Source: a virus. From it: a stretch of 64,000 nucleotides of DNA. Within the stretch, counting starts at the first letter, position 1, and the number at the start of each line of letters is the position of its first letter. Shown here in pieces: positions 288 to 58,645 of this stretch. The notes below the pieces were generated by a model, which had not been told where the DNA came from, made no database searches, and worked only from the letters and a program-made list of their open reading frames with translations. A program made the position numbers and the translations under genes. The stretch is taken from positions 1-64,000 of IMG/VR virus record IMGVR_UViG_3300000301_000012; one strand, written 5' to 3'.

Positions 288-290
288 CTT

Positions 291-2840: not shown

Positions 2841-2849
2841 ATATTCTCC

Positions 2850-3132: not shown

Positions 3133-3136
3133 TTAA

Positions 3137-3222
3137 GTATATGTCCGCAAACATATACCCCAATTTTTCTTAAATTGGGGTATATGTCCGTAAACATATA
3201 CCCCAATTTTTCTTAAATTGGG
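3137..3222. repeat. tandem 43-nt direct repeat (2 copies), each unit holding two hairpins
   Basis: The unit gtatatgtccgYaaacatataccccaatttttcttaaattggg occurs at 3137-3179 and 3180-3222 with one mismatch. Each unit folds as GTATATGT/ACATATAC and CCCCAATTT/AAATTGGGG. Confidence 0.8.
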
Positions 3223-3335
3223 TAATGTCATCCCATCAGACATTTATTAAGGCGCAGTAACGTTACGCCACCCTATTTAAATTTTAGAGATTAGTAAAAA
3301 TAGCTTCGCCACGTAAAGGCTCTCTAATGAAGCCG

Positions 3336-3421
3336 CGCCAGAGAGAGGATTCGAACCTCCAAGCCATTTCTGACCGGCACTTTTCAAGAGTGCTGCTCTC
3401 ACCATACTGAGCGACTCTGGC
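3336..3421 (-). tRNA. tRNA-Ser(UGA)
   Basis: Acceptor GCCAGAG/CTCTGGC. Anticodon stem GCACT/AGTGC with loop CUUGAAA. Long variable arm, T-loop TTCGAAT, no encoded CCA. Confidence 0.85.
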
Positions 3422-3429
3422 ATATAAAA

Positions 3430-3504
3430 TGGTACCCACACCCAGAATCGAACTGAGATAGCGGCCTTAGAAGGACCGAGTTCTATCCGTTGAACTATAT
3501 GGGC
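3430..3504 (-). tRNA. tRNA-Arg(UCU)
   Basis: Acceptor GCCCATA/TGTGGGT. Anticodon stem CGGTC/GGCCG with loop CUUCUAA. T-arm CTCAG-TTCGATT-CTGGG, encoded CCA. Confidence 0.85.
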
Positions 3505-3511
3505 ATATAAC

Positions 3512-3598
3512 TAGACATAGTGAAGGAATCGAACCCTCTCAAGTAAAATTTTACAGATTTTCTTTTTAACCAAAAAATTTTTGCTGTTACTATGTCTA
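3512..3598 (-). ncRNA. tRNA-like RNA (GUA anticodon-like loop, canonical T-arm, aberrant D region); member of the ACAGCAAUU-box family
   Basis: A 9-bp terminal stem TAGACATAG/CTATGTCTA is followed by the box TAACAGCAA and the hairpin AAAAT-CUGUAAA-ATTTT. T-arm is GAGGG-TTCGATT-CCTTC. No normal D-arm is present. Confidence 0.45.
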
Positions 3599-3599
3599 T

Positions 3600-3695
3600 T
3601 GGCGCAACCGAGTAGACTCGAACTACCACATCAGATTTCTCCGATTACTCTCAACTTAGCAGGTTGATTCCTTACCCAATTAGGATTACGGCTGC
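3600..3695 (-). tRNA. tRNA-Ser(GCU)
   Basis: Acceptor GCAGCCG/CGGTTGC. Anticodon stem TCAAC/GTTGA with loop CUGCUAA. Long variable arm, T-loop TTCGAGT, encoded CCA. Confidence 0.85.
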
Positions 3696-3702
3696 ATAAA
3701 CT

Positions 3703-3766
3703 AGGCGCACTAACATCATCTACAAATTTATGGCGCAGATTGTTAATAGAATTGCAGTAAGCGCCT
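3703..3766 (-). ncRNA. acceptor-stem-like hairpin spacer with conserved box (family member)
   Basis: Terminal stem AGGCGC(T)/(A)GCGCCT, with the box TTACTGCAATT directly after the 5' arm on the minus strand. Confidence 0.35.
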
Positions 3767-3793
3767 TTTAGATTTATTGGACTTAATTTCAAC

Positions 3794-3867
3794 TGGCAGC
3801 GGTAGATGGTTACGCTCCACCTCCAAAGGTGTCAAAGACCTTTGTACTACTATTATACGATACCGCC
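3794..3867 (-). tRNA. tRNA-Gln(UUG)
   Basis: Acceptor GGCGGTA/TACCGCT (G1-U72) with discriminator G. Anticodon stem AAGGT/ACCTT with loop CUUUGAC. Unusual T-loop AGCGTAA, encoded CCA. Confidence 0.75.
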
Positions 3868-3870
3868 ATA

Positions 3871-3947
3871 TGGACCAGCAGACGAGATTTGAACTCGCAA
3901 CATCCTACTTGGAAGGCAGGTGCTCTAGCCAACTGAACTACTGCTGG
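3871..3947 (-). tRNA. tRNA-Gly(UCC)
   Basis: Acceptor CCAGCAG/CTGCTGG. Anticodon stem CCTGC/GTAGG with loop CUUCCAA. T-arm GCGAG-TTCAAAT-CTCGT, encoded CCA. Confidence 0.8.
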
Positions 3948-3951
3948 ATAT

Positions 3952-4091
3952 TGGTACTAGCGGGTGGAATCGAACCACCGGCAACAGGTTTTGGTGAGTT
4001 AAAAAGGTCTTGCACCTTCATCTTTTTAAAGGTTTTACTTTTAAACTATTAACCCATAAGACCTGCCCCATCACCACTTGGGTACGCTAGT
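3952..4091 (-). tRNA. interrupted tRNA; becomes a perfect 76-nt tRNA-Ile(UAU)-type cloverleaf if the 64-nt insert is removed
   Basis: Acceptor ACTAGCG/CGCTAGT, D-arm CCCA-AGTGGTGA-TGGG, anticodon stem CAGGT/ACCTG, T-arm GGTGG-TTCGATT-CCACC, then A-CCA. The loop halves CUUAU and AA are separated by 3992-4055. Confidence 0.6.
3992..4055 (-). ncRNA. tRNA-shaped insert lacking an anticodon arm, nested in an anticodon loop
   Basis: Reads GGGTTAA-TA-GTTT-AAAAGTA-AAAC-(12 nt)-GAAGG-TGCAAGA-CCTTT-TTAACTC-A-CCA. It has a 7-bp acceptor stem, D-arm, T-arm, discriminator and CCA. Confidence 0.5.
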
Positions 4092-4099
4092 ATATAGAC

Positions 4100-4159
4100 A
4101 AGACACCTTTGTTTCACAAATTGGCCATTTGTTGCAAGAAAAATTGCTGTTAGTGTCTT
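4100..4159 (-). ncRNA. acceptor-stem-like hairpin spacer with conserved box (family member)
   Basis: Terminal stem AAGACAC/GTGTCTT, then box TAACAGCAATT. Inner hairpins are GCAA-TTTTTC-TTGC and ACAAA-TGGCCAA-TTTGT. Confidence 0.4.
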
Positions 4160-4161
4160 AA

Positions 4162-4236
4162 TGGTTGTGACAGAAAGAATCGAACTTTCATGACGGCGTT
4201 ATCAGCACCGCATACTAACCATTGTATTATGTCACA
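4162..4236 (-). tRNA. tRNA-Ile(GAU)
   Basis: Acceptor TGTGACA/TGTCACA. Anticodon stem CGGTG/CGCCG with loop CUGAUAA. T-arm GAAAG-TTCGATT-CTTTC, A-CCA. Confidence 0.85.
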
Positions 4237-4239
4237 ATA

Positions 4240-4313
4240 TGGAGGCCAACCTCAGAATCAAACTGAGAACGAGAGGTTACAAAGCTCTTGTTTTATCATT
4301 AAACTAGTCGGCC
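4240..4313 (-). tRNA. tRNA-Thr(UGU)
   Basis: Acceptor GGCCGAC/GTTGGCC, D-arm GTTT-AATGATA-AAAC, loop UUUGUAA (one C-C mismatch closes the anticodon stem). T-arm CTCAG-TTTGATT-CTGAG, encoded CCA. Confidence 0.75.
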
Positions 4314-4318
4314 ATAAC

Positions 4319-4398
4319 TAGACGCTATTAACTATTAAATTAAATATATAGGGTTATATTTAGACCAAGATATTTAAATAAATTGCCGTAAGCGTCTA
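4319..4398 (-). ncRNA. acceptor-stem-like hairpin spacer with conserved box (family member)
   Basis: Terminal stem TAGACGCT/AGCGTCTA, with the box TTACGGCAATT after the 5' arm on the minus strand. Confidence 0.35.
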
Positions 4399-4409
4399 AT
4401 AAAAATTTC

Positions 4410-4486
4410 AAAGCACAATTAAGTAATATTTATCTTCTTGTCACAAAGTATCTTAAACTTAAAGTTCAAATTGCTGAATGTGCTTT
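4410..4486 (-). ncRNA. acceptor-stem-like hairpin spacer with conserved box (family member)
   Basis: Terminal stem AAAGCACA/TGTGCTTT, followed by the box TTCAGCAATT. Confidence 0.35.
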
Positions 4487-4488
4487 AT

Positions 4489-4564
4489 TGGTGCGCCAGG
4501 CGGTACTCGAAACCGCGGTCCCTTGATTAAAAGTCAAGTGCTTTACCAACTAAGCTACTGGCAC
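4489..4564 (-). tRNA. tRNA-Lys(UUU)
   Basis: Acceptor GTGCCAG/CTGGCGC. Anticodon stem CTTGA/TCAAG with loop CUUUUAA. T-arm GCGGT-TTCGAGT-ACCGC, A-CCA. Confidence 0.85.
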
Positions 4565-4616
4565 AAAATGCGTGTTTTACTTCCCGCCGGAAGATAAATA
4601 TATTTCCCAATCCTAT

Positions 4617-5054
4617 TTAGTTCTCTACGTTAAGCTTCATATTCTCATAAATATCTTTAAACTTCATATCCTCATAAATATCTACAATATTATGAGAATC
4701 TTCCTCTCGTACCCTAGCTACTCGTTCACGTTCCTCCTGATCCATTTCCACTTCCATCAAATTGAAAAAATGTTCCATAAATCGGTGAAGAGCCTTAGTC
4801 CTATCCTTCTCATACTTCAAGGAAGCTCGACGAGCCGCCATAATACGACCGATTTCCTCGTTAAAAACATCACCAGGCGCGCACTTAGCAACACCAACAT
4901 ACTTCTTCTTTAGCTTCAATACTTCGTACAATACAACAGGATTAAAGAGGTAAGGATTTTTAGCTCTCTTCAAAACAAGCTTATATACATCCTTATCACA
5001 ATTGTCAATAGTTGCCTTAACGATACCTGCTTCCTTGTCTACAAAGTACTTCAT
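4617..5054 (-). CDS. hypothetical protein embedded in the tRNA array
   Basis: 145-aa ORF with AAAGGAGTTTAAATT before the ATG and a TAA stop. Confidence 0.6.
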   Translation of the reverse strand: MKYFVDKEAGIVKATIDNCDKDVYKLVLKRAKNPYLFNPVVLYEVLKLKKKYVGVAKCAPGDVFNEEIGRIMAARRASLKYEKDRTKALHRFMEHFFNLMEVEMDQEERERVARVREEDSHNIVDIYEDMKFKDIYENMKLNVEN

Positions 5055-5139
5055 AATTTAAACTCCTTTTCTTTTTTTAAGTTTGTATAACTATTATACT
5101 TATTTTTTGTAGAACTTTCAAATTTTTTCTATCAGATGC

Positions 5140-5222
5140 TGGTGCGTTTGACAGGACTCGAACCTGCAAGCCGAAGCAACAGAACCTAAATCTGTCGAGT
5201 TTACCAATTTCTCCACAAACGC
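5140..5222 (-). tRNA. tRNA-Leu(UAG)
   Basis: Acceptor GCGTTTG/CAAACGC. Anticodon stem ACAGA/TCTGT with loop UUUAGGU. Long variable arm TGCTTCGGCT, T-loop TTCGAGT, A-CCA. Confidence 0.85.
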
Positions 5223-5564
5223 ATATTAAGTGCCTAGCTACCTCGTAAAACTAGGCGGGCTAGTGCTTCTCACCCGTAGGCATTACCCTTACCTTATCGG
5301 TTTACATCCACACTATATCACCACTATTATTTAATGGGTAATTCGCAGCGAGGTTTTTAACGATAATCTTATATTTTCTGGACAACATAAAATTGCGCTA
5401 TTTATTCTTCCAAATTAGCCCTAAAAAGTTTCATCTTAATATGCTTGTTAGGAATCTGCGCCCGTTTTGTTATTCATAGCTTTACTTTTAGTTATAAGTT
5501 CCTAGGTTTTATAACTAAAAGTTACCAATATTCCGAATCCCACGGAATAATATAAGATTATCTT
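5223..5564 (-). ncRNA. unassigned structured non-coding block (about 340 nt)
   Basis: No ORF on either strand. A 13-bp long-range pairing joins GATAATCTTATAT (5549-5561) to ATATAAGATTATC (5362-5374). A 13-bp hairpin spans about 5483-5525. Further pairings are ATTACCC/GGGTAAT and GCCTAG/CTAGGC. Confidence 0.4.
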
Positions 5565-5641
5565 TGGTAGTCACTAACAGACTCGAACTGTTGACCTCCT
5601 CGGTGTAAACGAGGCGTTCTAACCAACTGAACTAAGCGACT
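5565..5641 (-). tRNA. tRNA-Val(UAC)
   Basis: Acceptor AGTCGCT/AGTGACT. Anticodon stem CCTCG/CGAGG with loop UUUACAC. T-arm AACAG-TTCGAGT-CTGTT, A-CCA. Confidence 0.85.
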
Positions 5642-5647
5642 ATATAA

Positions 5648-5676
5648 GTGACTAATTATTTTAATTTGCTAGTCAC
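5648..5676 (-). ncRNA. short hairpin spacer with conserved box remnant (family member)
   Basis: Stem GTGACTA/TAGTCAC with a 15-nt loop that begins GCAAATT on the minus strand. Confidence 0.3.
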
Positions 5677-5746
5677 CAACAAATAGATGTTTGGGACACA
5701 CACAGTGGAGGGCACGGTCAGATTCGAACTGACGACACGCTGGTTA

Positions 5747-6415
5747 TGGCGTCAACTATGAGATTTGAACTCATATCTTTTCCCATTCTATATCAGAGTA
5801 TTTTTGAATATCTTTTCTCTTTGACGGTAAATTATACTTTTTACACCATTTACGAACAGCATTATCTGAAACTTTAAACATTTTTCCAATTGTAGTAAAC
5901 GGAGTATTTCTTATTAAGGATTTTAATTCTTCTCTACTTATTATATTTTTTTCTCTTAAACATTTCTAACATAACCCTGTTTTATTATTTGCAATTTCTT
6001 TTTTACAAGAAGAACAATAATATTGATGTTTTTTTGGATTTTTTAATTCTTCTGCTATATTTTTGTCATAAATTCTTTTTTGCTCAAGATATTCTTTAGT
6101 ATAAAAACCATCATGAACTTCTCTATGACAATTTGCACATAATAAAATACATTTCTAAATTTCTTGTAAATCTTCTTCCAAATTATGACAAATTCCTTTA
6201 GAAGAAATTCCGTACTCTTTTTCTTCAGGTCTTATATGATGAAATTCTAATGCACTTTTGCTTCTATTATAGCCACAAATATTACATTTATCACCACAAA
6301 CCCTTATTAAATTTTCTTTTCTTCTTCGTCTAAAATCAGAAGTTGCCTAACTACTCATAAATTTCACCATCAAACAATAGAATACAAAGAAAAATATTTC
6401 TTATACTAAGCTGAC
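5747..6415 (-). mobile_element. tRNA-shaped shell carrying an HNH endonuclease gene, nested in an anticodon loop
   Basis: The 5' end reads GTCAGCT-TA-GTAT-AAGAA-ATAT and the 3' end ATGAG-TTCAAAT-CTCAT-AGTTGAC-G-CCA. The acceptor stem has 7 bp including one G-U. The ORF replaces the anticodon arm. None of the ACGG...CCGTGCYAA group I core seen in the other three introns is present. Confidence 0.5.
5771..6358 (-). CDS. HNH homing endonuclease (3 in-frame TAG)
   Basis: ATG at 6358 and TGA at 5773-5771. The translation has CGDKCNICGY...EFHHI...CANCHREVH. TAG falls in the context GLC-TAG-KC. Not in the ORF track because TAG breaks it. Confidence 0.8.
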
Positions 6416-6451
6416 ACAGCCAGCTGCTCTGACCAACTGAGCTACGCACCC

Positions 6452-6977
6452 ATATAATGCCCTGGTTGCCAATCCTTCTCTGGTACTCAGACCTCTGGAG
6501 CGGCCGGGCCAGCCGCAAGAGTTTCTTTAATAAGGGAAACTACATAAAGACCTCCCCATCTTTCGTTAGGGACACGCTGAGGTTTAAGACCTCCCCCGTC
6601 TGTCGTTAGGGGTCACGCCGAGATTTTCAGGCACGAGGTACTCAGTACACACCCCGCTATTACGAGCGCCCGATGATGGACGCACTTAGTTTTTTCTCCG
6701 CAGAGAGGATATACTTTAACCCGAACTAGTTCTAGGCCTTTTTACTTCTTTACGCACATAAAAGACCACATAAACAACGCGCCATTTTACGAATTATTTC
6801 CACAGTTTGGGAGCCATACAAAAATAGTAACGAGGGCTTCGTCAGAAAGTTCTTATGCGACAAGAACTTACAATGAACGCTTTGAGTTTTTTCCTCGGAG
6901 TAAACCATCAACTAAATTTCTCGTATACAGAAACTTAATCTATTTTACAATCCTAGAAAAACGTTCCAAAGATTTAA
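6452..6977 (-). ncRNA. large structured non-coding RNA candidate (about 525 nt; ROOL/GOLLD-like context, class unconfirmed)
   Basis: No ORF, and visibly GC-richer than its flanks. It has many hairpins (AAGTTCTT/AAGAACTT, GCGGC/GCCGC, GTTTC/GAAAC). The module CCC(C)TAACGANAGAYGGGG(G)AGGTCTT is duplicated. It sits flush between two tRNA-type ends. Confidence 0.55.
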
Positions 6978-7509
6978 TGGTGGGCCATCTTGGTATCGAA
7001 CCAAGCGAGTCACAATGACAGCGGCTTTTGGAGATAGAATTTAGATTTGAACTAAAAAGTTGCAAGTATTAAATCCTTGGTTATTGGAATTTGGGATAGT
7101 TCTTAAAACTATTCTTGAAAGATTTCCAGATTTACGAATCTCTTCAACGGGAATTACAAAAAGATTCTTCATATCATCAGCACAAAATAATAAATCTACT
7201 GGATGATTTAGTAAATTATCATAAACTTGTCCCTTTGTTCCGCCTTTGTTTACCAATGAAATCTCCTTATTTTTACTAGCTGTAAATTTACATTGTACTG
7301 TTTGAAAAATATCATCTTTTTCTACAACTAAATCATACCATTGTGTATCATTAATTGGTAAACTAACAGTATAACCATTGGAACCAAAATATGCGATAGC
7401 AAGACTTAATCCCGCTCTTCCTTTATCCCTATTATTTAATAATTGCATAACCCTCCTCCATTAGGATTCTACCACAGGCCGCCCCGTCTCCTTAACGGAA
7501 TACTGACCC
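6978..7509 (-). mobile_element. tRNA-shaped shell carrying a PD-(D/E)XK endonuclease gene (free-standing)
   Basis: The 5' end reads GGGTCAG-TA-TTCC-GTTAA-GGAG and the 3' end CTTGG-TTCGATA-CCAAG-ATGGCCC-A-CCA, with 6 of 7 acceptor pairs. The architecture matches 5747-6415. Confidence 0.4.
7041..7448 (-). CDS. PD-(D/E)XK homing-endonuclease-like protein (I-Ssp6803I-like family)
   Basis: 135 aa with GGAGGAGGG before the ATG. The translation KGRAGLSLAIAYFGSNGYTVSLPINDTQWYDLVVEKDDIFQTVQCKF matches the D...(D/E)xK pattern of the small PD-(D/E)XK intron endonucleases. Confidence 0.7.
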   Translation of the reverse strand: MQLLNNRDKGRAGLSLAIAYFGSNGYTVSLPINDTQWYDLVVEKDDIFQTVQCKFTASKNKEISLVNKGGTKGQVYDNLLNHPVDLLFCADDMKNLFVIPVEEIRKSGNLSRIVLRTIPNSNNQGFNTCNFLVQI

Positions 7510-7596
7510 ATATAATGGCGGTTGGAGCTTATTTTAATTCGACGTCCGCCAACTCGAATGAAGGTTGAGTTATTGTCATTATACCTACAATATGAC

Positions 7597-7672
7597 TGGT
7601 CACGCCATCGGGAATCGAACCCGAATTACGGGATTGAAAGCCCCGTTTCCTTACCGTTTAGAAGATGGCGCG
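7597..7672 (-). tRNA. tRNA-Glu(UUC)
   Basis: Acceptor CGCGCCA/TGGCGTG. Anticodon stem CGGGG/TCCCG with loop CUUUCAA. T-arm TCGGG-TTCGATT-CCCGA, A-CCA. Confidence 0.85.
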
Positions 7673-7906
7673 ATAGAAATAGGAGTGACCGCCCTCCTAT
7701 TGGGTCTGTTGTTCCACTCCTATCGGTAGTTTTTAAATGGTGTTACCGACACCGATTTGCGTCAGGAGGAGTATCCTCCCCAATGGAATTTGTTGATACA
7801 ATCATAGAACCATCTCCTTCCAATAAACGCTTTTTAAGACTTAGCGTGGTACGCATTATTAAGAGGCGTGCTAAGTTCATTTCTACAAGAGGAACTTCCC
7901 ACTTGG
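7673..7906 (-). ncRNA. unassigned structured spacer immediately 3' of the suppressor tRNA
   Basis: No credible ORF. Hairpins are AGGAG-TGACCGCC-CTCCT, GGAGGA-GTA-TCCTCC, CGGTA...TACCG and CTTAGC...GCTAAG enclosing GCGT-GGT-ACGC. Confidence 0.35.
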
Positions 7907-7982
7907 TGGCAGCGGTTCTCAGAATCGAACTGAGTCCATCGCTTTTAGAGAGCGAGGCGCTAAACCGTTACGCTAAACCGCA
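7907..7982 (-). tRNA. amber suppressor tRNA(CUA), Gln-like identity features
   Basis: Anticodon stem TCGCT/AGCGA with loop CUCUAAA; the anticodon is complementary to plus-strand tag at 7946-7948. D-arm GCGT-AACGGTTTA-GCGC and T-arm CTCAG-TTCGATT-CTGAG. Acceptor TGCGGTT/AACCGCT has a U1-U72 mismatch, G2-C71 and discriminator G. CCA is followed by a second CCA. Confidence 0.85.
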
Positions 7983-8014
7983 TCATTCAAGTTTTTGAAT
8001 GGAACTTTAACCAT

Positions 8015-8089
8015 TGGGTGCAGAGGAAGGATTCGAACCTTCGATCTCCGACTCATGAGGACGGTGAGATACCACTTCTCTACTCTGCA
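8015..8089 (-). tRNA. tRNA-Met(CAU) (elongator Met or Ile2; not resolvable by eye)
   Basis: Acceptor TGCAGAG/CTCTGCA, loop CUCAUGA, T-arm GAAGG-TTCGAAT-CCTTC, C-CCA. The anticodon stem has one U-U mismatch. Confidence 0.75.
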
Positions 8090-8097
8090 ATATAGAC

Positions 8098-8162
8098 AAG
8101 GCACATAAGTAACAATAATTTCTCACCCAAGAAAAGCTGTTATTAATTGCTGTTTGCGCCTT
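8098..8162 (-). ncRNA. acceptor-stem-like hairpin spacer with conserved box (family member)
   Basis: Terminal stem AAGGCGCA/TGTGCCTT (one G-U pair), followed by the box AACAGCAATT. Confidence 0.35.
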
Positions 8163-8214
8163 TCTTTATCTTACATAAATATTATATAAGATTTTTAAAA
8201 ACTTTTCAAATTTC

Positions 8215-8337
8215 AAGATACCGTTAGAATAATTATTGCCTTACCATTTAGGCGATTTCTAAAATGATTAGAAAGTAAGAATCGAACTTACAATAGATAA
8301 TTTCCAAAAAATAATTATTGGTTGCTGTAGGTATCTT
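8215..8337 (-). ncRNA. circularly permuted, capped tRNA-like RNA on a basal stem (YrlA/Y-RNA-like architecture)
   Basis: The minus strand reads: basal AAGATACC, box TACAGCAA, then ATTAT, CTATT, T-arm GTAAG-TTCGATT-CTTAC. The acceptor TTTCTAA-TCATT-TTAGAAA is closed by a loop. Then come TC, D-arm GCCT-AAATGGTA-AGGC, A, ATAAT and basal GGTATCTT. Confidence 0.55.
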
Positions 8338-8341
8338 TAAC

Positions 8342-8415
8342 TGGCAGAAAACGTCGGTGCTGCCCCGCTATTCCACCTCCCAAAGATGGCGTGTTACTGT
8401 TACACTACGTTCTCT
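8342..8415 (-). tRNA. tRNA-Pro(UGG)
   Basis: Acceptor (A)GAGAAC(G)/(C)GTTTTC(T). Anticodon stem CCATC/GGTGG with loop UUUGGGA. The T-arm is weak and non-canonical (loop GGCAGCA). It abuts tRNA-Ala. Confidence 0.7.
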
Positions 8416-8491
8416 TGGTGGAACTAAGGGGATTCGAACCCCTAACCCTCTGCGTGCAAAGCAGATGCGCTTCCAATTACGCTATAGCCCC
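8416..8491 (-). tRNA. tRNA-Ala(UGC)
   Basis: Acceptor GGGGCTA/TAGTTCC carries the G3-U70 alanine identity pair. Loop UUUGCAC, T-arm AGGGG-TTCGAAT-CCCCT, A-CCA. Confidence 0.9.
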
Positions 8492-12130: not shown

Positions 12131-12166
12131 TTGACATTTCTCCTTTTACTCAATAAAGTAAAAGCT

Positions 12167-12277
12167 AGACGCAATAGCTCCAAAGAAGGGACTCGAACCC
12201 TTAAATACTGAATTTAACGTTCAGAGCTTTTTCCTTTTAAGCTACTTCGGAAATCTCTCGCTTCGCTGTTCGCGTCT
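12167..12277 (-). ncRNA. stem-enclosed tRNA-like RNA directly upstream of the Ro60-like gene
   Basis: Basal pairing AGACGC (12277-12272 complement) with GCGTCT (12172-12167 complement). The box-like GAACAGCG follows the 5' arm. It encloses the cloverleaf at 12178-12251. Confidence 0.45.
12178..12251 (-). tRNA. tRNA-like cloverleaf with UUA in the anticodon position and G33 (probably not a decoding tRNA)
   Basis: Acceptor TCCGAAG/CTTTGGA and D-arm GCTT-AAAAGGAAA-AAGC. Anticodon stem CTGAA/TTCAG with loop CGUUAAA. T-arm AAGGG-TTCGAGT-CCCTT, no CCA. Confidence 0.5.
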
Positions 12278-41869: not shown

Positions 41870-44517
41870 ATCCTGAGCGAGTTAGTCCTTTGGATATTGA
41901 TATTGATATTGAAGGCTCTAAAAGAGATAAAGTATATAGTGCTTTTCAAAAACATTATGGCGCAAATAGAGTTTCTAAAGTTTTAACTTTAAGAACTGAA
42001 AAATCTAAATCAGCGGTTCTTACTGCCGCGCGCGGACTTGGTATTGATGTTGATATTGCTCAATATTTATCTTCTATGATTACGGCAGATAGAGGATTAT
42101 TAAGAACTTTAAAACAAACTGCTTATGGTGATGAAGATAATAATATTTCAGCTAATAATCAATTTAGGATTGAAATGGAAGAAAATTATCCTGAACTTTG
42201 GGAAGTTGCACAAAGAATTGAAGGTTTAATCTGTGGGGTTGGTTCTCATGCAGGCGGTGTTATTTTTGTAGACGAACCTTTTTATAAAACAACGGCATTG
42301 ATGAAAACTTCTAATGGTGACGTTGTAACTCAATTTGACCTTCATGATGCCGAGGATGTAAGTTTAATAAAAATTGACCTGTTGTCTATTGAGGCTCTTG
42401 ATAAAATCCATATTTGTTTGGATTTACTTTGTGATTATGGATATATTACACGAGAAAAAACTTTAAAAGAAACCTATGAAAAAGTTCTTGGTATTTATAA
42501 TCTTGAACGAGATAATCCTGATATGTGGAAAATGCTTTGGAATCATGAAGTAATGTCATTATTCCAAATGGAAAAACAAAGTGGTATTCAAGGAATTGCA
42601 TTGACTCATCCTTCTTCTGTTGATGATTTAGCAGTTATTAATTCAGTAATGAGATTGATGGCTTCTGAAAAAGGCGCGGAGCAACCGTTGAGCAAATATG
42701 CCAGATATAAAGACAACATAAATCTTTGGTATGATGAAATGATAAATTATGGATTAACTGAAGACGAAATTAATTGGCTTAGAAGCTATTTAGATATTTC
42801 TTTTGGTATTTGTGAAACACAAGAAAAACTAATGTCTATGGTACAAGACGAAAGAATAGGTGGCCATTCTCTTCTTTTTGCTGATAGATTAAGAAAATCT
42901 ATTGCAAAGAAAAAACCAGTAGAATTTTTACAATGTGAAAAAGAGTTTTTTGAAACTATAGAAGAAAAGCATTTATCCAAAAGATTGGCCAATTATGTTT
43001 GGAATGTTATTTTTAAGGTTCAAAGAGGATATTCATTTTGTGCCGCGCATACGCTTGCCTATAGTTTAGTGGGATTACAAGAGTTAAATCTTGCTTTTAA
43101 ATATCCTATTGTTTTTTGGAATTGTGCTTGTTTAATTACAGATAGTGGTGGATTAGAACAAGAGCAAGAGGAAGAAGAAGATATTTATTCCGAAGAAACT
43201 CAATATATTAATTGTATTGAAGAATTTACGGAAGATGAAGAAGAAGACGATGATGATGACGATGAAGAAGAAAAAGATTCTACTAAAAAGAAAAAGAAAG
43301 TAAAAACAGTAAACTTCGGTAAGATAGCTACAGCAATTGGAAAAATGAAAGCAATAGGAATTGAGGTGGCTCCACCTGATATAAATAAATCAGGATATAC
43401 TTTTTCTCCAGAAGTAAAAACTAATACTATTCGTTATGGTCTAAGCGGCATTACTAGAGTTGGGGAAGAAATTATTCAAAATATTCTTTCTAATAGACCA
43501 TACTCTACTTTACAAGATTTTCTTTCTAAAGTAAAAGTTACAAAGCCTCAAATGGTTAATCTAATTAAATCAGGTGCATTTGATAGTTTTGGAGATAGAG
43601 AAGAAGTAATGAAAAAATATATTGCTTCAATTAGTAGTCCCAAAACTAGATTAACATTACAAAATATGAGAATGTTAATTGATAACAACTATATTCCGCC
43701 TCATTTAGATTTTCAAATTAGACTTTTTAATTTTAATAAATATTTAAAGAATTTTAAATATGAAAATAAATATTTGTTGAATGATATTGCTCTTAGCTTC
43801 TTTGATAAAAATTTTGATGTAGATGAATTAATTGTAATGAATAATTCTGAATATCAATATGCTATTCTTCAAACTAAATGGGACAAGATATATAAGAAAG
43901 GTATGGACCCTGTTAGAGACTTTTTAAAAAGCCATCAAGAAGAATTACTTAAAGAAGTAAATGAAGGATTAGTAAAAGAATTGTGGGATAAGTATTGTAG
44001 TGGCAATATTAGTAAATGGGAAATGGATTCAGTTTCTTATTACTCACACGATCATGAACTGAAAAATGTTGATTGCGCCCGCTACAATTTTTCTGATTAT
44101 AGTTATCTTTCTGAAAATCCTGAAATTGACAGAATTATAGAAATCAAAGGGAAAAAGATTCCATTATTTAAATTACATCGTATTATTGGAACTGTTCTTG
44201 ATAAGGATAAAAATAAAAAAACAGTTACTATTTTAACTACTAGTGGAGTAGTTACAGTTAAGATTTACGGTGGAGTATATTCTCATTATGACCGACAAAT
44301 TTCCAGAAAAGACCCAAAGACAGGAAAGAAAAAAGTTATAGAAAAATCTTGGTTTTCAAGAGGTAATAAAATAATTGTAACTGGAATTAGACAAGAGGAT
44401 GGATTCTTAGCTAAAAAATATAAAAATACACCTTATCATTTAGTGGAATTAATTGAAAAAGTAAAAGATGATGGAAGTATTTTAATAAGAAGTGAAAGAA
44501 TTGAGGAAGAAGAATAA
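41864..44517 (+). CDS. dnaE: DNA polymerase III alpha, exon 2
   Basis: The translation has MNPERVSPLDIDIDIEG...GSHAGGVIF...QMEKQSG..., and a C-terminal OB-like region. An acidic E/D insertion lies at about 43141-43290. Confidence 0.85.
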
Positions 44518-45677
44518 TGGGTACTGTAGGTTTATATGATTGTGACTTATCTAATTTTGGATAGATTTTCTTCAATTTAGAGTTGATGAAAATAGCTTCC
44601 TATTTTAAGAATAGCAACTAGATTGTAACTATGTGTCCAAAGATATAGCCAGAATTATATTCTGATTTTTATTATCGAAAAGATTATGATACTGGAGTTT
44701 TTAATAAAAAGATTCTTCCTTATTTAAGTAATGAACATTTTCATTACGGTGGTTTAGCTTTCTCAAATAATAAATACATTCCATTACCAGAGGATATTGA
44801 AGGGTCTATTCCTGACCCTTCTATTTATTCTCGATTTTAGGAATCCTTTGAAAGAAGTTCTTTAGGAAAAATTGGATATAGAAGTTTTATGCGCGGGCCG
44901 CACTTAAGATTATCTACAGATGAAAAGACTATCTCAAATTATCCTTTTGATAAAGTATTATGGTCTACTAAAGGAGTAATAGTGTTTATCCACGATTATG
45001 ATATTGGTAAAATAGAGGATAGTTTGGATACAGTAAAATATTTATTACAATAGAAAAATAAAAATTTAATAAAAGGCGCGCTCGCGACAAAATTTCCCGT
45101 TGTTCTAAAAAAAGAATAGGATTTTATTGAATGGGAAAAAATAATTTGGTCGCCATTATCCGCGCCACTAACTTTTAAAGGATTAATGAATGATGAAGCT
45201 TTTTCGGAAGTAACTTTATTAACAAGATTAGGTCAACGAAAAATAGAGAATATAGATTATTATATAGATTATGGATGTTCCGATGAAGATGATTTTATAA
45301 TAAATCGCTTACCTAAAATTTTTAAATAGGTCACATTTTTACGAATGAATTAGGCAAGAATTTTTCTTAAATATGAGGATAATTTTTTTCAAGATGAAAG
45401 ATGTAGAAAATTAATTGGATTACTTAATGTATTTATAGAAGGAGAACGAACTTTAAATTATGAATAGCACCATGATTTTATAAATACGAATACCTTTGCA
45501 GGTTATTGTAAAAAATTATAGATAGTGCAAGGTAAACCAAAAGTCGTTCCTTTTCTAAGGGAAGATGCAAGAGAAGTATTTCAATTTATTCGAGAAAAAA
45601 ACTACGAACTTTTTAAAGATTTTTATGAATGTAGTACTGTTACTTTAAAAAATGGAGAGTTTAAAAATGACAAGTGA
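44517..45677 (+). CDS. hypothetical early-module protein (10 in-frame TAG)
   Basis: ATG overlaps the dnaE TAA. I walked all 386 codons. TAG lies at 44562, 44619, 44646, 44838, 45051, 45117, 45327, 45351, 45465 and 45519. No TAA or TGA occurs before 45675. Confidence 0.7.
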
Positions 45678-49840: not shown

Positions 49841-50684
49841 TAATATTAAAAATATTAACGAAAATCAACAGAATGCTATTGATACATTTGCCCAAATTCT
49901 GGCGCTTCCCGATGAAGAATTTAAAACTTTCTCCCAGCTTTTTCTTGATACTCTTGAAAAAGAATTGACCGACCCCAAGAATATTTCTACTATACAAATT
50001 ATTTTTAAAAATTCTGGGATAGATGTTGAAAATTTTGTAGATAGCGCTGATGATTTATGTGAATCTCTTAAAGAAAAATATGGTAAAGATTTAGGAGAAG
50101 ATAGAATTGATTTCCTTGTAAAGATGGTTATTCTATTTAAAAACGCAGTTCGCGCGAATGGTAATCTTGGAAAGAAAATTGTAATGATTCAAGTAGAAAA
50201 ATGTTCGGAAGATACAAAAATTCCCACCTACGCGAGAGTTGGTGATGCTGGAATGGATATTTACTCTACAGAAGAAGTTACTTTGGCGCCAGGTGAGAAG
50301 AAATTAATTGGAACAGGTATTAAAGTTGCTATTCCTGAAGGATATGAAATTGAAGTAGTTCCTAAAAGTGGTATCGCATTAAGAACTGGTTTAAAAGTTT
50401 CTAATAGTCCTGGTACTATTGATAGTGGATATAGAGATGAAATTAAAGTAATTGTTGAAAACTCAGAGCCTTCAATTAAGGATATTGAATATACTTTTGA
50501 TGATAATAGAAATCCTGTAATTAAAAGCATCCTTCATGGAAAATCTTATACTATTGAAAAAGGTCAAAAAATTGCACAGATTATTCTAAAAGAAGTTCCT
50601 ATGATTAACTTCCAAGAAGTTAAAAATATTAGTGAAATTTCGGGCGACCGAGGTGGAGGCTTTGGCTCAACTGGGCTTAAGTAA
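49824..50684 (+). CDS. dut: dUTPase with N-terminal extension
   Basis: The translation has ARVGDAGMDIYS, GTIDSGYRDEI and C-terminal RGGGFGSTG motifs. Confidence 0.85.
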   Translation: MIMGIDNIKNINENQQNAIDTFAQILALPDEEFKTFSQLFLDTLEKELTDPKNISTIQIIFKNSGIDVENFVDSADDLCESLKEKYGKDLGEDRIDFLVKMVILFKNAVRANGNLGKKIVMIQVEKCSEDTKIPTYARVGDAGMDIYSTEEVTLAPGEKKLIGTGIKVAIPEGYEIEVVPKSGIALRTGLKVSNSPGTIDSGYRDEIKVIVENSEPSIKDIEYTFDDNRNPVIKSILHGKSYTIEKGQKIAQIILKEVPMINFQEVKNISEISGDRGGGFGSTGLK

Positions 50685-50686
50685 AA

Positions 50687-51421
50687 ATGTCTAAAATAAA
50701 AATAGAAGATATAAGAAAGGAACTTCAAGATGATGGATGGAAATTAATTTCTGATACTTATGAAAATTTAGATAGTGAAATGATTTTTTAGTGTCCAGAA
50801 GGACATACAGTATATAGCTCATGGAAAAAATTAAGAACAAAAAAAGAATGTCCTATTTGCAAAGCTAATAATTTTAAAGTCTTAGATTCAAAAGTAATCT
50901 CTAAATCAAAAGGAGTAAAGAGAGTTTTAGCTTTAGATTAGGCGACTCATATTACAGGCTGGGCTATTTTTGATAATCAGAAATTAATTAAATATGGAAA
51001 GTTTAGAACGGATTATTCTAAAGAAGAAGAACGTACCAATACAATAAAACATTGGTTAATTAATATGATTACTACTTGGAATCCTGATGAAGTAGGAATT
51101 GAAGATATACATTTTCAATAGAAAACCGCACAAGGCGCGCCAGTTGGCTTAATGACTTATAAAACTTTAGCTCATTTATAGGGAGTTATTATAGATACAT
51201 TATTTGAGATGAAACAATCTTTTACAATTTGTTCTCCATCTACTTGGCGCGAGCATTGTAAGGTTAAAGGTAAAACTAGCCCAGATAAAAAACGCTCAAT
51301 GCAATTAAAGGTTAAAGAATGGTTTGATATTAGTGTTACAAATGATGAGGCAGATGCAATAGGTATTGGGAAATATGTATCGGATAGCTTAAAAAAATGG
51401 GAAATAGTTAATTGGGAATAA
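50687..51421 (+). CDS. ruvC: RuvC-like Holliday junction resolvase with N-terminal zinc-ribbon extension (4 in-frame TAG)
   Basis: The translation has VLALD-TAG-ATHITGWAIF, GIEDIHFQ-TAG-K and NDEADAIGIG. Track ORF 51209-51421 is in the same frame as the ATG at 50687. Confidence 0.75.
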
Positions 51422-53706: not shown

Positions 53707-54639
53707 TTATACATTAGTCTATCCTGAGATATAAAAATTTATATATCCTATAACTGAGTTTGCGGTAGATGGCCTAATTAAATACAAAGAAGGAGCATAA
53801 TCTATTCTGTAAGATGCTGTAGGATTTAACCATATCAATGCAGACTAATTGTTAGTTGAATAAAAACTTGCCTAAATATTCGGATATGTATTTCTTTGAA
53901 AAGAATAGGGGTAGCGATATTCTCTTTGACCAATGGGGGAATCAGAACGATACCAATTTTCCCCTAGTGTATAAGATACAGAAGTAGAAACATAAATAGA
54001 GGCCCATAATTCCATAAAACCATCAGACCATATGCGATAGGTCCATACTCCTGAGGTTCCTTCAATTGTTATATAACGATTTATCATATTTAATTTATCA
54101 TAAAGAAATGTAGTCATTAGTCCATCCTAAGAACTAGATACAGTCGGAATAGTATACCAAGTTCCCTAATTAGATGAATCTCTTCTTAGGTACTATCCAC
54201 TAGAACCTAAATTTGTAGGAGAATCCATTTTTTTATTTAAAGTATTATATAATTCAGTAGTCATTAGTCCATTCTAAGAACTAGATACAGTTGGAATAGT
54301 AACCCATGTTCCCTAATTATTTCCTGCTCTTTGCAGATACTATCCACTAGAACCTAAATTTGTAGGAGAATCCATTTTTTCATCTATAGATTCTTTTATT
54401 AAAGTTATTTCACTTTCTAAATTTTCTATATCAATTATTTTATGAGTATGTTCTTCTGGAGGAAAAGTTTCTGGTTTATTCTAAATATTTTCCCAAGAAG
54501 TATCATTTAACGAAACGATTTCTCCATTAATTTTAGTATATAATTTATTAGTAGTTTTATCTATGCCAGGTTCTAATTCTTCTAAATCATTAGATGTTGG
54601 TATTGTTTCTCCACTCTTTAAAATTATTTTATTAGCCAT
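53707..54639 (-). CDS. tail fibre tip-like protein, twin of 17052-17984 (10 in-frame TAG)
   Basis: The frame was walked codon by codon. TAG lies at 54481, 54340, 54313, 54274, 54193, 54166, 54127, 53872, 53845 and 53719, with TAA at 53709-53707. It has an internal duplicated MDSPTNLGSSG-TAG-YL segment. It is exactly 933 nt, the same length as 17052-17984. Confidence 0.8.
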
Positions 54640-55033
54640 CAGAAACCTCCAAAAATTTTAGAAGAGTTTCTAAATCTCCAAATTTTAAATTAACTTCATT
54701 CAATTTTTCAAAATCTTTGTTTTTAATTTTAATTTTTTCTATTTCAACTTCTGTATTATTTAATTCCATAATTGCTTTTTGACATTCTTCAATTTTATCT
54801 TTTATAATAATAAAACTACTCTAATCATTTGACATTTTTATTGTACCATCTTCATTTTTTTCACAATAAAGATTTAAAATTTTATTAAATTCTTCTTGCC
54901 AAAAATTATAATTAGTTTTATTTTTTTCATTTAATAAAGTTAAAGAATAGGCTAATTGAATAGGTATTACCTTTTCCTTTAAATTATTATATACTTCCTA
55001 AAAAACTAAACAATCCTATAAATTAATTTTCAT
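54632..55033 (-). CDS. hypothetical protein (3 in-frame TAG)
   Basis: GGAGGA lies before the ATG at 55033. TAG at 55016, 54998 and 54821; TAA at 54634-54632 (checked). Confidence 0.6.
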
Positions 55034-58000: not shown

Positions 58001-58645
58001 AGAACTTCCACTACAAGAAATAGTAACTGTATCTCCATCATAAACTGTAGAAGGAGATATTTCTATATTAGTAGGAGCTTTACTTTTTGTATAAATGGGA
58101 GTGGGGTCTGATTGCTTTGGTAAAGTTAATGTTACATTACCATTACTATCAACATTAACCCCACTGTGACTAGTTAATCCATGTGAGTCATGAAAATAAG
58201 TACTCGCATAAGGAAGAGTCATATAAGTTAAAAAACTAGATATCTTATGAGAAGTAGGAGGGGGATTACAAAATCCTGCTAAAATTGATATAGTTTTACT
58301 AGAAGTTGATGTATAAGTAAAACTATGTGTAACAGCTGGAAAATTAACCCATCCATTACCAATCTCATAAGGTCCATTTCCCCCATCTTCTCCAGAAGTA
58401 TTCTTATTATGAACCTATTTTTTAATACCATTTATTGTAATATAATCGCTTCCATATGGATTATCTCCTTTTCCATACCAAGTAGGTCCATAATTATCAT
58501 AACGTCTTACAGACATTGTTGTAGTAAAAGTCGCAGTAGTAGTAGTACCACTTGTGCTAAGCGAATATGAGCCTGCAATTTTAAAGCCCATATTTGCCGT
58601 AGCGTCATTATCTCTATACCAAACTTCAACTGAATAATTAGGCAT
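55097..58645 (-). CDS. large structural / host-recognition protein, 1182 codons (20 in-frame TAG)
   Basis: AAAGGAGTG lies before the ATG at 58645. Five track ORFs share this frame. I walked every gap: 20 TAG and no TAA or TGA until TAA at 55099-55097. Confidence 0.85.

What the first reader, a model, noticed from the sequence alone, without database searches (positions are those of the whole stretch)
7907..7982. Phage-encoded amber suppressor tRNA(CUA) with glutamine-type identity features
This is a clean cloverleaf with anticodon loop CUCUAAA (anticodon CUA). The acceptor end has an unpaired 1-72 position (U-U), G2-C71 and discriminator G73. In E. coli tRNA-Gln, a weak 1-72 pair together with G73 are GlnRS identity elements. 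The tRNA-Gln(UUG) in this array (3794-3867) likewise has a wobble 1-72 pair and G73. The gene ends in CCACCA, a doubled CCA. This supplies the decoding agent for the TAG reassignment and argues for Gln.
Basis: partly seen in the sequence, partly recalled or inferred. Interest (0 to 1): 0.75.

Follow-up and report, generated by a model that had tools for sequence, protein, structure and literature searches.

The report
Phage amber suppressor tRNA, glutamine type
This is a real phage tRNA gene that reads the stop codon TAG, almost certainly as glutamine, so the phage can translate late genes full of in-frame TAGs; this mechanism is already known in gut phages, here seen in an undescribed lineage.

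Summary
Window 7907-7982 (minus strand) is a canonical cloverleaf tRNA with anticodon CUA (Rfam tRNA 54.6 bits). It has U1·U72, G2-C71, G73 and an encoded CCACCA.

TAG is a sense codon in this genome. ORF coverage rises from 65% to 91% when TAG is read through. One tail gene carries 41 in-frame TAGs, and no ORF needs TAG as a stop.

The amino acid is Gln on four lines of evidence:
- In 120 homologues of the tail protein, Q makes up 35% of residues at TAG columns, against a 4% background, and five columns are nearly invariant Q.
- Standard-code relatives have CAA/CAG at TAG columns.
- Between near-identical strains, TAG varies only with CAG/CAA (6 sites) or GAG (2 sites).
- The tRNA's acceptor end matches only the phage's own tRNA-Gln(UUG).

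All five distinct recoded relatives examined carry the tRNA in the same place, after tRNA-Met. Three non-recoded relatives lack it. U1·U72 and G73 are invariant in the homologues. The doubled CCA is not.

This is a new member of a known kind (code-15 phages). The charging route (GlnRS, or GluRS plus GatCAB) and the handling of RF1 are not shown.

In passing: a second "suppressor", tRNA(UUA) at 12177-12251, looks like a Y-RNA-like tRNA mimic next to a Ro60-like gene, not an ochre suppressor.

The parts
7907..7982 (-). tRNA-Sup(CUA): amber suppressor with U1·U72, G2-C71, G73, G10, A37, a 4-nt variable loop UGGA, a canonical T loop UUCGAUU, and encoded CCA
   Evidence: conserved in L010, L011, L012, L013, L014, L031
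7904..7906 (-). Second CCA immediately after the encoded CCA (first bases of the 3' trailer). Present in 4 of 6 homologues, so not a conserved feature.
8015..8089 (-). tRNA-Met(CAU), 32 nt upstream of the suppressor. The Met-Sup pair is syntenic in all relatives that carry the suppressor.
8181..8209 (-). Sigma-70-like promoter match (TTGAAA-17-TATAAT, 11 of 12) about 90 nt upstream of tRNA-Met. Candidate promoter for the Met-Sup unit; a consensus match only.
3794..3867 (-). Phage tRNA-Gln(UUG) with G1·U72 and G73. Acceptor positions 2-6 and 67-73 are identical to the suppressor, and it has the same UGGA variable loop.
3335..8491 (-). tRNA gene array (13 further tRNAs plus two degenerate tRNA-like remnants) in which the suppressor sits
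58659..63998 (-). Tail protein ORF (Prophage_tail family), running off the window end: 1779 codons with 41 in-frame TAG. The main client of the suppressor.
55097..58645 (-). 1182-codon structural ORF with 20 in-frame TAG
53707..54657 (-). Tail-fibre-like ORF with 10 in-frame TAG. Its paralogue at 17052-18038 has CAA and CAG at two of these positions.
44505..45677 (+). 390-codon ORF (386-aa protein) of unknown function between the DNA polymerase and NrdD genes, with 10 in-frame TAG. Used for the homologue test.
50681..51421 (+). RuvC-like resolvase ORF with 4 in-frame TAG. Three of them are CAA/CAG Gln in the standard-code relative L007.

Best explanation
The gene encodes a functional elongator tRNA with anticodon CUA. 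It is expressed from the phage's tRNA array, is charged by host enzymes so that it carries glutamine, and inserts Gln at UAG. This turns TAG into a sense codon (genetic code 15) during infection.

Genes needed early are TAG-free: topoisomerase, helicases, most of the polymerase, ligase, the Ro60-like gene and the tRNA region. Structural genes and some accessory genes carry TAG at 1.4-3.3% of codons, so they can only be made full-length once the suppressor has accumulated.

Shown here:
- the tRNA and its conservation;
- TAG as a sense codon;
- Gln as the residue that fits TAG positions;
- co-occurrence of the tRNA with recoding.

Inferred:
- Glutamine charging through the weak 1-72 pair, G73, G2-C71, G10 and U35. 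These are either read directly by GlnRS, or the tRNA is charged by non-discriminating GluRS and then amidated by GatCAB.
- Near-complete out-competition or inactivation of host RF1. This is required because 41 TAGs lie in one ORF.
- The role as a timer for late genes.
For: The tRNA is real and canonical.

TAG is a sense codon:
- Stop-to-stop ORF coverage rises from 65% to 91% when TAG is sense. TGA as sense gives only 69%.
- Within the 41 ORFs defined with TAG read as sense there are 133 in-frame TAGs; every complete ORF ends in TAA (30) or TGA (10), and one runs off the window end.
- 36 TAGs are conserved as TAG in strains at least 90% identical.
- The base after an in-frame TAG is distributed as after any sense codon (p = 0.62).

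The residue is Gln:
- Tail protein against 120 homologues: Q is 35% of residues at TAG columns against 4.1% background. Five columns have Q in 87-119 of 120. The summed BLOSUM62 score is Q 28.2, E 18.3, K 8.4. The Q fraction at TAG columns (0.29 counting gaps, 0.35 without) is close to that at the protein's true CAR-Gln columns (0.37).
- 386-aa protein against 82 homologues: Q is the top residue, and one column has Q in 79 of 82.
- DNA-verified standard-code relatives L004 and L007 have CAA/CAG at these conserved columns and at 2-3 of the 4 RuvC-like TAG sites.
- The independently recoded relative L036 has CAA at two window TAG columns. The window has CAR-Gln at 4 of the 12 aligned non-TAG positions where L036 has TAG.
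- Strain-level variable sites: six TAG<->CAG/CAA, two TAG<->GAG, and nothing else.
- In-window paralogues show TAG opposite CAA and CAG.

tRNA identity:
- The acceptor end (2-6 GCGGU, 67-73 ACCGCUG) is identical to the phage tRNA-Gln(UUG). It is the best match among 122 tRNAs (12 of 15 positions), and the next best match is also a Gln tRNA.
- Gln tRNAs of this phage family share U72 and G73, whereas its Glu tRNAs have C72 and A73.
- U1·U72 and G73 are invariant in 6 of 6 suppressor homologues, even though the anticodon and D stems have been replaced by compensatory changes.

Association: all recoded relatives L010-L014 and L031 carry the tRNA. Non-recoded L015-L017 do not carry it within ±10 kb of the syntenic marker gene.

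Precedent: TAG->Gln with phage tRNA-Sup(CUA) is reported in the bioRxiv preprint 10.1101/2021.08.26.457843, PMC9523058 (mass spectrometry) and PMC10607447.
Against: - There is no direct evidence of expression, aminoacylation or the residue inserted.
- Part of the homologue evidence is circular. The protein collection translates recoded contigs with code 15, so an unknown fraction of homologue 'Q' residues are themselves TAG. Only the DNA-verified comparisons are free of this problem.
- E and K are the runners-up at TAG columns, and 2 of 8 strain-level changes are TAG<->GAG.
- One TAG column aligns with a conserved Tyr (106 of 120).
- The E. coli GlnRS identity set is only partly met (C3-G70, A36, A38).
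- The compositional test (Gln codon depletion in TAG-rich genes) was inconclusive.
- No release factor, aminoacyl-tRNA synthetase or anti-RF1 gene was found among the window ORFs scanned, so how 41 TAGs in one ORF are read efficiently is unexplained.
- Whole-sequence similarity of the suppressor to tRNA-Gln is no higher than to other isoacceptors (0.64-0.67).
Confidence: 0.85

Rival explanations
1. The tRNA is a functional amber suppressor but delivers glutamate (or lysine), not glutamine. For example, a non-discriminating GluRS could charge it in a GlnRS-less host and GatCAB might not amidate it.
For: E is the second-best residue at TAG columns. Two of eight strain-level changes are TAG<->GAG. 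The nearest cultured relatives by DNA polymerase are SPbeta-like Bacillus phages, and many Bacillota lack GlnRS (established knowledge).
Against: Five tail-protein columns, one column in the 386-aa protein and two or three RuvC-like columns are specifically Q, not E or K. TAG<->CAR outnumbers TAG<->GAG 6 to 2. The acceptor end matches the phage Gln tRNA (U72/G73), not its Glu tRNAs (C72/A73). In the established GatCAB system a weak first pair marks the Gln tRNA, not the Glu tRNA.
Confidence: 0.06
2. The CUA tRNA is not the main decoder, or is inactive. UAG would then be read by something else: the nearby tRNA-like UUA element by wobble, a host near-cognate tRNA-Gln after RF1 inactivation, or an unseen factor encoded elsewhere in the genome.
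For: In Borges et al., only about 40% of TAG-recoded phages had a detectable suppressor, so other routes must exist (10.1101/2021.08.26.457843). A 1-72 mismatch is unusual for an elongator tRNA. A second tRNA-like gene with UUA lies at 12177-12251. Only 64 kb of a roughly 116-122 kb genome was seen.
Against: The CUA tRNA is conserved with intact pairing through compensatory changes. It is present in all recoded relatives examined and absent from the three non-recoded ones. The UUA element lacks U33, its 'anticodon' is not conserved (UUA versus GUA), it has no CCA, and it sits next to a Ro60-like gene. An ochre-reading tRNA would also read the genome's main stop codon, TAA (30 of 40 complete ORFs).
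Confidence: 0.05
3. It is a pyrrolysine tRNA, as ARAGORN's label suggests.
For: ARAGORN names it tRNA-Pyl because of the CUA anticodon.
Against: It has a standard cloverleaf: two bases between the acceptor and D stems, a 9-nt D loop with GG, a 5-bp anticodon stem, a 4-nt variable loop and a UUCGAUU T loop. The published tRNA-Pyl architecture is different. No Pyl-related family appeared among the window ORFs scanned. TAG at 2-3% of codons in late genes, sitting on Gln-conserved columns, is incompatible with Pyl usage.
Confidence: 0.01

Closest known systems
tRNA-Sup(CUA) of TAG->Gln (code 15) gut phages: crAss-like, Lak, and the gemstone-named clades of Borges et al. (10.1101/2021.08.26.457843; mass-spectrometry validation in PMC9523058)
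   Same: A phage-encoded CUA tRNA in a low-GC gut-type phage. TAG is enriched in structural and late genes and absent from most replication genes. TAG aligns with Gln. No dedicated synthetase is found nearby.
   Different: The lineage is different. There is no nucleotide or tRNA match in GenBank phages or IMG/VR. The replication and structural modules are SPbeta-like (YorL-type DNA polymerase III alpha at 41% identity; a YomU tube protein in a relative). No release factor gene was seen in the window.
phAss-1 / proposed 'Phassvirus' group (PMC10607447)
   Same: A roughly 120-136 kb phage with DNA polymerase III alpha and a large tRNA array that includes tRNA-SUP-CTA. TAG is recoded to Gln in virion genes and some DNA-processing genes. 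The predicted host is a Bacillota species.
   Different: This window has one suppressor copy, against two or three in that group. There is no detectable nucleotide similarity to anything in the GenBank phage collection searched, and the best polymerase matches there are SPbeta-like phages. It is therefore not close to any sequence in that collection; whether the phAss-1 group is included there was not checked.
E. coli supE (glnV44), tRNA-Gln with anticodon CUA
   Same: A Gln-type acceptor end (weak 1-72 pair, G2-C71, G73, G10) combined with a CUA anticodon that keeps U35. It inserts Gln at UAG.
   Different: The phage tRNA has a full U·U mismatch rather than U1-A72, C3-G70 instead of G3-C70, and A38 instead of U38. 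It serves genome-wide sense decoding rather than weak nonsense suppression.

Membership tests
tRNA (Rfam RF00005) | Covariance-model score above the gathering threshold, with all four arms present | tested here: met
   54.6 bits against a threshold of 29, model positions 1-71 of 71; only the 1-72 pair is non-canonical. ARAGORN also calls it.
Amber suppressor tRNA of code-15 (TAG->Gln) phages | Anticodon CUA in a 7-nt loop with U33 and a purine at position 37 | tested here: met
   The loop is C-U-C-U-A-A-A. CUCUAA is invariant in 6 homologues.
Amber suppressor tRNA of code-15 (TAG->Gln) phages | The carrying genome uses TAG as a sense codon | tested here: met
   ORF coverage rises from 65% to 91%. 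There are 133 in-frame TAGs, up to 41 in one ORF. TAGs are conserved between strains.
Amber suppressor tRNA of code-15 (TAG->Gln) phages | TAG positions correspond to Gln in homologues | tested here: met
   Caveat: some database homologues were themselves translated with code 15.
Amber suppressor tRNA of code-15 (TAG->Gln) phages | The tRNA co-occurs with recoding among relatives | tested here: met
   Six of 6 recoded related contigs (five distinct) carry it. None of the 3 non-recoded related loci carries it within ±10 kb. The sample is small.
Amber suppressor tRNA of code-15 (TAG->Gln) phages | Gln is actually incorporated at UAG (protein-level evidence) | not testable with these tools
   Needs proteomics of virions or infected cells.
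tRNA-Gln identity set (E. coli GlnRS, from the literature) | Weak or openable 1-72 pair plus G73 | tested here: met
   U1·U72 and G73, invariant in 6 of 6 homologues.
tRNA-Gln identity set (E. coli GlnRS, from the literature) | G2-C71 and G3-C70 | tested here: not met
   G2-C71 is present, but position 3-70 is C-G. The phage's own tRNA-Gln(UUG) has the same C3-G70.
tRNA-Gln identity set (E. coli GlnRS, from the literature) | G10; anticodon U35 and G36; A37; U38 | tested here: inconclusive
   G10, U35 and A37 are present. Position 36 is A, as it must be in any amber suppressor (supE has the same). Position 38 is A, not U. Host-specific identity rules are unknown.
tRNA-Gln identity set (E. coli GlnRS, from the literature) | Aminoacylation with Gln by GlnRS, or by ND-GluRS plus GatCAB | not testable with these tools
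tRNA-Pyl | Compact non-canonical architecture (6-bp anticodon stem, 3-nt variable loop, small D loop without GG, one base between acceptor and D stems), together with pyl genes | tested here: not met
   The tRNA has a canonical cloverleaf with GG in a 9-nt D loop, a 5-bp anticodon stem, a 4-nt variable loop and a UUCGAUU T loop. No pyl gene family appeared among the ORFs scanned.

The most novel reading that the evidence does not exclude
The host may be a Bacillota species without GlnRS. The suppressor would then reach Gln by the indirect route: a non-discriminating GluRS accepts a CUA anticodon, and GatCAB recognises the invariant unpaired U1·U72 end. That would be stop-codon reassignment driven through transamidation. 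In this reading, the flanking Ro60-like protein, its tRNA-like RNA and the RlaP-like enzyme would act as a quality-control or protection module for the phage tRNA set.
Probability: 0.15. Interest if true: 0.55.

Novelty: new member of a known kind. Interest (0 to 1): 0.3.

Why it matters
The result tells annotators to translate this phage, and a sizeable family of roughly 110-140 kb relatives in gut-type metagenomes, with code 15. Otherwise about a quarter of the coding sequence, including the tail genes, is fragmented.

It adds a lineage with SPbeta-like modules to the set of TAG->Gln phages. It also gives a clean comparative case. The suppressor shares its acceptor end with the phage's own tRNA-Gln and keeps an unpaired 1-72 position through extensive stem turnover. 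That points to the acceptor end as the selected identity determinant, and it can be tested by charging assays. It does not change the current understanding of phage recoding.

Tried and rejected
- Megablast of 25 kb of the window, and blastn of the tRNA, against GenBank phages found nothing.
- tblastn of the 386-aa and 1182-aa TAG-rich proteins against GenBank phages found nothing.
- IMG/VR scans with the Ro60-like protein, and with exact and degenerate tRNA patterns, found nothing.
- A degenerate tRNA pattern in GTDB genomes gave only chance hits in unrelated MAGs. In JGI metagenomes it gave one true relative, L031, among 11 hits.
- An exact-sequence lookup of the window's Ro60-like protein was not on record.
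- A compositional test, asking whether CAA/CAG is depleted where TAG is frequent, was weak and non-significant.
- A +4 context bias after TAG was not found.
- Whole-tRNA sequence similarity does not single out Gln; only the acceptor end does.
- TAA or TGA recoding was rejected. TGA as sense adds almost nothing. TAA as sense only inflates spurious ORFs in a 32% GC sequence, and TAA is the main stop codon.
- The host was not identified.

Full report
**1. The observation**

ARAGORN finds 15 tRNA genes, all on the minus strand between 3335 and 12251. One of them, at 7907-7982, is a 76-nt tRNA with anticodon cta. Rfam's tRNA model scores it at 54.6 bits (gathering score 29; E 5.6e-9 for the window) over the full model. 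The only non-canonical pair flagged is 1-72.

Read on the minus strand, the sequence is UGCGGUU-UA-GCGU-AACGGUUUA-GCGC-C-UCGCU-CUCUAAA-AGCGA-UGGA-CUCAG-UUCGAUU-CUGAG-AACCGCU-G-CCA, followed by CCA. The tRNA-Gln(UUG) at 3794-3867 does have G1·U72 and G73. ARAGORN labels the gene 'tRNA-Pyl', which I take to be its generic name for a CUA anticodon. The architecture is a standard cloverleaf with GG in the D loop and a UUCGAUU T loop, not the tRNA-Pyl architecture.

**2. TAG is a sense codon here**

The window is 31.7% GC.
- Stop-to-stop ORFs of at least 100 codons cover 65% of the window under the standard code. They cover 91% if TAG is read through, and only 69% if TGA is read through. Reading TAA through merely multiplies spurious ORFs.
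- With TAG as sense, the ORF at 58659-63998 (-) has 1779 codons with 41 TAGs. The ORF at 55097-58645 (-) has 1182 codons with 20 TAGs. The ORFs at 53707-54657 (-) and 44505-45677 (+) have 10 each.
- There are 133 in-frame TAGs in 41 ORFs defined with TAG read as sense; every complete ORF ends in TAA (30) or TGA (10), and one runs off the window end.
- Topoisomerase, helicase, ligase, most polymerase pieces and the gene next to the tRNA array have no TAG.
- The base that follows an in-frame TAG is distributed as after any sense codon (p = 0.62).
- Thirty-six TAGs are conserved as TAG in strains at least 90% identical. They are therefore not assembly errors or pseudogene lesions.

**3. Which amino acid**

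(a) *Tail protein.* The first 842 residues of the tail protein (Prophage_tail family) were compared with 120 homologues at 40-55% identity.
- Q makes up 35% of residues at the aligned TAG columns, against a 4.1% background.
- Five columns have Q in 119, 118, 108, 104 and 87 of 120 homologues.
- The summed BLOSUM62 score is Q 28.2, E 18.3, K 8.4.
- The Q fraction at TAG columns (0.29 counting gaps, 0.35 without) is close to that at the protein's genuine CAA/CAG columns (0.37).

(b) *The 386-aa protein.* Against 82 homologues at 30-41% identity, Q is again the top residue (17% against 3.7% background). One column has Q in 79 of 82. W is at 0.1% and Y at 1.8%.

(c) *A caveat found on the way.* The protein collection translates recoded contigs with TAG = Q. 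This applies to P0001 and P0263, so some homologue Q residues are circular. I therefore checked DNA directly.
- Relatives L004 (NCBI MAG contig JAIFIN010000028.1) and L007 translate with the standard code across this gene. They have CAA/CAG at the conserved column and at 2-3 of the 4 RuvC-like TAG sites.
- In the independently recoded L036, two window TAG columns are CAA. The window has CAA/CAG Gln at 4 of the 12 aligned non-TAG positions where L036 has TAG. One of these is a column that is Q in 119 of 119 homologues.

(d) *Strain-level changes.* In blocks at least 90% identical, the only changes involving TAG are six TAG<->CAG/CAA and two TAG<->GAG.

(e) *Paralogues.* Within the window, the paralogue pair 53707-54657 and 17052-18038 shows TAG opposite CAA and CAG.

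The compositional test was inconclusive. One TAG column sits on a conserved Tyr. Overall, Gln is strongly favoured, Glu is a distant second, and Trp, Tyr, Leu and Ser are excluded as the general meaning.

**4. The tRNA's identity and conservation**

Relatives were reached through homologues of the neighbouring gene 10655-12145 and through one metagenome pattern hit.
- The CUA tRNA is present directly after tRNA-Met(CAU) in L010, L011, L012, L013, L014 and L031.
- The window and L010 copies are identical. L014 differs by one D-loop base.
- L013 and L031 have replaced the D stem (GCGU/GCGC with GUAU/GUAC, the same D stem as the phage tRNA-Gln). All or most anticodon-stem pairs have changed with complementarity kept (UCGCU/AGCGA, CCUGG/CCAGG, CACGG/CCGUG). 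T-stem pairs have also changed.
- Through all this turnover, U1, U72, G73, positions 2-7/66-71 and the loop bases CUCUAA are invariant.
- Positions 2-6 and 67-73 are identical to the phage tRNA-Gln(UUG). Among 122 tRNAs from this window and seven related loci, the acceptor end plus discriminator matches Gln tRNAs best (12 of 15 positions; the next best, also Gln, is 10 of 15).
- Gln tRNAs of more distant, non-recoded relatives also have N1-U72 and G73. Glu tRNAs in the family have C72 and A73.
- Whole-sequence identity does not discriminate between isotypes. The resemblance is confined to the part of the tRNA that a synthetase or amidotransferase reads besides the anticodon.

The doubled CCA is present in 4 of 6 homologues. 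L031 has a single CCA. In L011 a GIY-YIG homing-endonuclease insertion starts right after C74 and removes the encoded CCA. I therefore regard CCACCA as incidental trailer sequence.

**5. Association with recoding**

Loci that carry the tRNA (L010-L014) jump from 0.45-0.67 to about 0.85 ORF coverage when TAG is sense. L015-L017 are about 54-56% identical in the marker protein and have no CUA tRNA within ±10 kb. They gain no more from TAG than from TGA. The sample is small, but it points the right way.

**6. Mechanism**

The best-supported account is as follows. The tRNA is transcribed within the phage tRNA array; a TTGAAA-17-TATAAT match lies at 8209-8181 upstream of the Met-Sup pair (a consensus match only). 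It is matured, charged by host enzymes to carry Gln, and competes with RF1 at UAG. Genes with many TAGs (tail and other structural genes, plus a glycosyltransferase, homing endonucleases and a RuvC-like resolvase) can then be completed only after the tRNA accumulates. This is the late-gene timer proposed by Borges et al. (10.1101/2021.08.26.457843).

Because one ORF holds 41 TAGs, per-codon read-through must be close to complete. RF1 must therefore be out-competed or neutralised. No release factor or synthetase was found among the window ORFs scanned, but only about half of a genome of roughly 116-122 kb is in view.

The charging route is inferred, not shown. The E. coli GlnRS identity set is met for the weak 1-72 pair, G73, G2-C71, G10, U35 and A37. 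It is not met for G3-C70 or U38. The closest cultured relatives by polymerase are SPbeta-like Bacillus phages (41% identity), and a relative encodes a YomU-type tube protein. A Bacillota host is therefore plausible, and many such hosts make Gln-tRNA through GluRS plus GatCAB. I could not identify the host.

**7. Comparison with what is known**

TAG->Gln recoding with phage-encoded tRNA-Sup(CUA) is established for several groups:
- crAss-like and Lak phages and several gemstone-named clades (10.1101/2021.08.26.457843);
- crAss-like phages validated by metaproteomics (PMC9523058);
- the roughly 136-kb, polymerase III alpha-encoding, tRNA-rich phAss-1 group (PMC10607447).

This window has no nucleotide or tRNA match in GenBank phages or IMG/VR. 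It belongs to a large metagenomic family: 5,995 homologues of the Ro60-like protein at E <= 1e-60, many on contigs of 100-140 kb. It is a new member of a known kind.

**8. The second apparent suppressor**

ARAGORN also calls a 'tRNA-Stop(UUA)' at 12177-12251 (Rfam tRNA 54.1 bits).
- It lacks U33: the loop is CGUUAAA here, UGUUAAA in L014 and CAGUAAA in L013. The 'anticodon' is therefore not conserved.
- It has no encoded CCA.
- It is enclosed by an extra outer stem (12277-12272 AGACGC / 12172-12167 GCGUCU). That stem shows a compensatory change in L013 and a wobble change in L014.
- It has its own promoter-like site.
- It lies 31 nt upstream of gene 10655-12145. That gene's AlphaFold model (pLDDT 80.5) has only Ro60/TROVE structures as its top ten matches. 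They include the Thermus phage phiLo Ro60 (TM 0.60-0.63) and the Deinococcus, Xenopus and human Ro60 proteins. Pfam sees DUF2828, DUF7788 and a weak VWA match.

Bacterial and phage Ro60 genes are known to be flanked by Y RNAs with tRNA-like domains (PMC4201824). I therefore read the element as a Y-RNA-like tRNA mimic rather than an ochre suppressor. This also fits TAA being the main stop codon. Its unpermuted tRNA topology differs from the YrlA RNA described in that paper. This is a side finding and was only partly followed up.

Noticed in passing
window 12167-12277 (-), core 12177-12251; gene 10655-12145 (-): A tRNA-like element is called 'tRNA-Stop(UUA)' (Rfam tRNA 54.1 bits). It has no U33, a non-conserved 'anticodon' (UUA here, GUA in L013), no CCA, and an extra outer stem that covaries. 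It sits 31 nt upstream of a DUF2828/DUF7788 protein whose predicted structure matches Ro60/TROVE proteins (Thermus phage phiLo Ro60, TM about 0.6). It is probably a Y-RNA-like tRNA mimic paired with a phage Ro60-like protein, with ordinary rather than permuted tRNA topology. ARAGORN does not detect it upstream of the homologous gene in L015-L017.
   Followed up: partly
window 2022-2840 (-): An RlaP-like (RNA repair pathway, DNA polymerase beta family) nucleotidyltransferase lies at the far end of the tRNA array. Together with the Ro60-like gene it brackets the array, which suggests an RNA repair or quality-control module.
   Followed up: no
L011 14268-15034 (relative of the window): A GIY-YIG homing-endonuclease gene is inserted directly after C74 of the suppressor tRNA, replacing the encoded CCA and the trailer. 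The tRNA array and the replication genes of this family are riddled with GIY-YIG, HNH and LAGLIDADG genes. In the window these lie at 5771-6400, 8744-9238, 27211-27927 and 41051-41869.
   Followed up: partly
window 22343-22927 (-) and 16120-22325 (-); L010/L011/L013 around 2500-5300: The window has an ORF with an Mtd_N (major tropism determinant) domain among paralogous tail-fibre-like genes. Close relatives carry a reverse transcriptase (RVT_1) next to the tail-fibre genes. This suggests a diversity-generating retroelement in the family.
   Followed up: no
window 1-2000: This block is 47% GC, against 31.7% for the window. It holds three minus-strand ORFs (436-1224 with DUF6273/DUF7129, 1261-1623, 1616-1957). 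It did not align to the close relatives L010 or L011, so it is likely a recently acquired insert.
   Followed up: no
window 3794-3867 (-): The phage tRNA-Gln(UUG) has a non-canonical T loop, AGCGUAA, with no UUC. This is conserved in L011, L013 and L031. It has the lowest Rfam score of the full-length tRNAs (46 bits).
   Followed up: no
window 3995-4055 (-) and 8346-8414 (-): There are two degenerate tRNA-like sequences. One lacks the anticodon arm (40.9 bits). The other is a weak tRNA-Pro(UGG)-like sequence with an aberrant T arm (29.6 bits). Neither is a suppressor.
   Followed up: partly
window 58659-63998 (-), motif NNIG-TAG-IGKN: One in-frame TAG aligns with a Tyr that is conserved in 106 of 120 homologues (Phe in 10). 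It is an exception to the Gln pattern. It could be a tolerated Tyr-to-Gln replacement reached by a single-base change from TAT/TAC.
   Followed up: no
L004 (NCBI MAG GCA_019973075.1, contig JAIFIN010000028.1) around 17500-18450: In this relative the replication genes translate with the standard code. However, there is an in-frame TAG in the homologue of window ORF 52224-52922, and the gene calls there are fragmented. It may be partly or newly recoded while deposited under the standard code.
   Followed up: no
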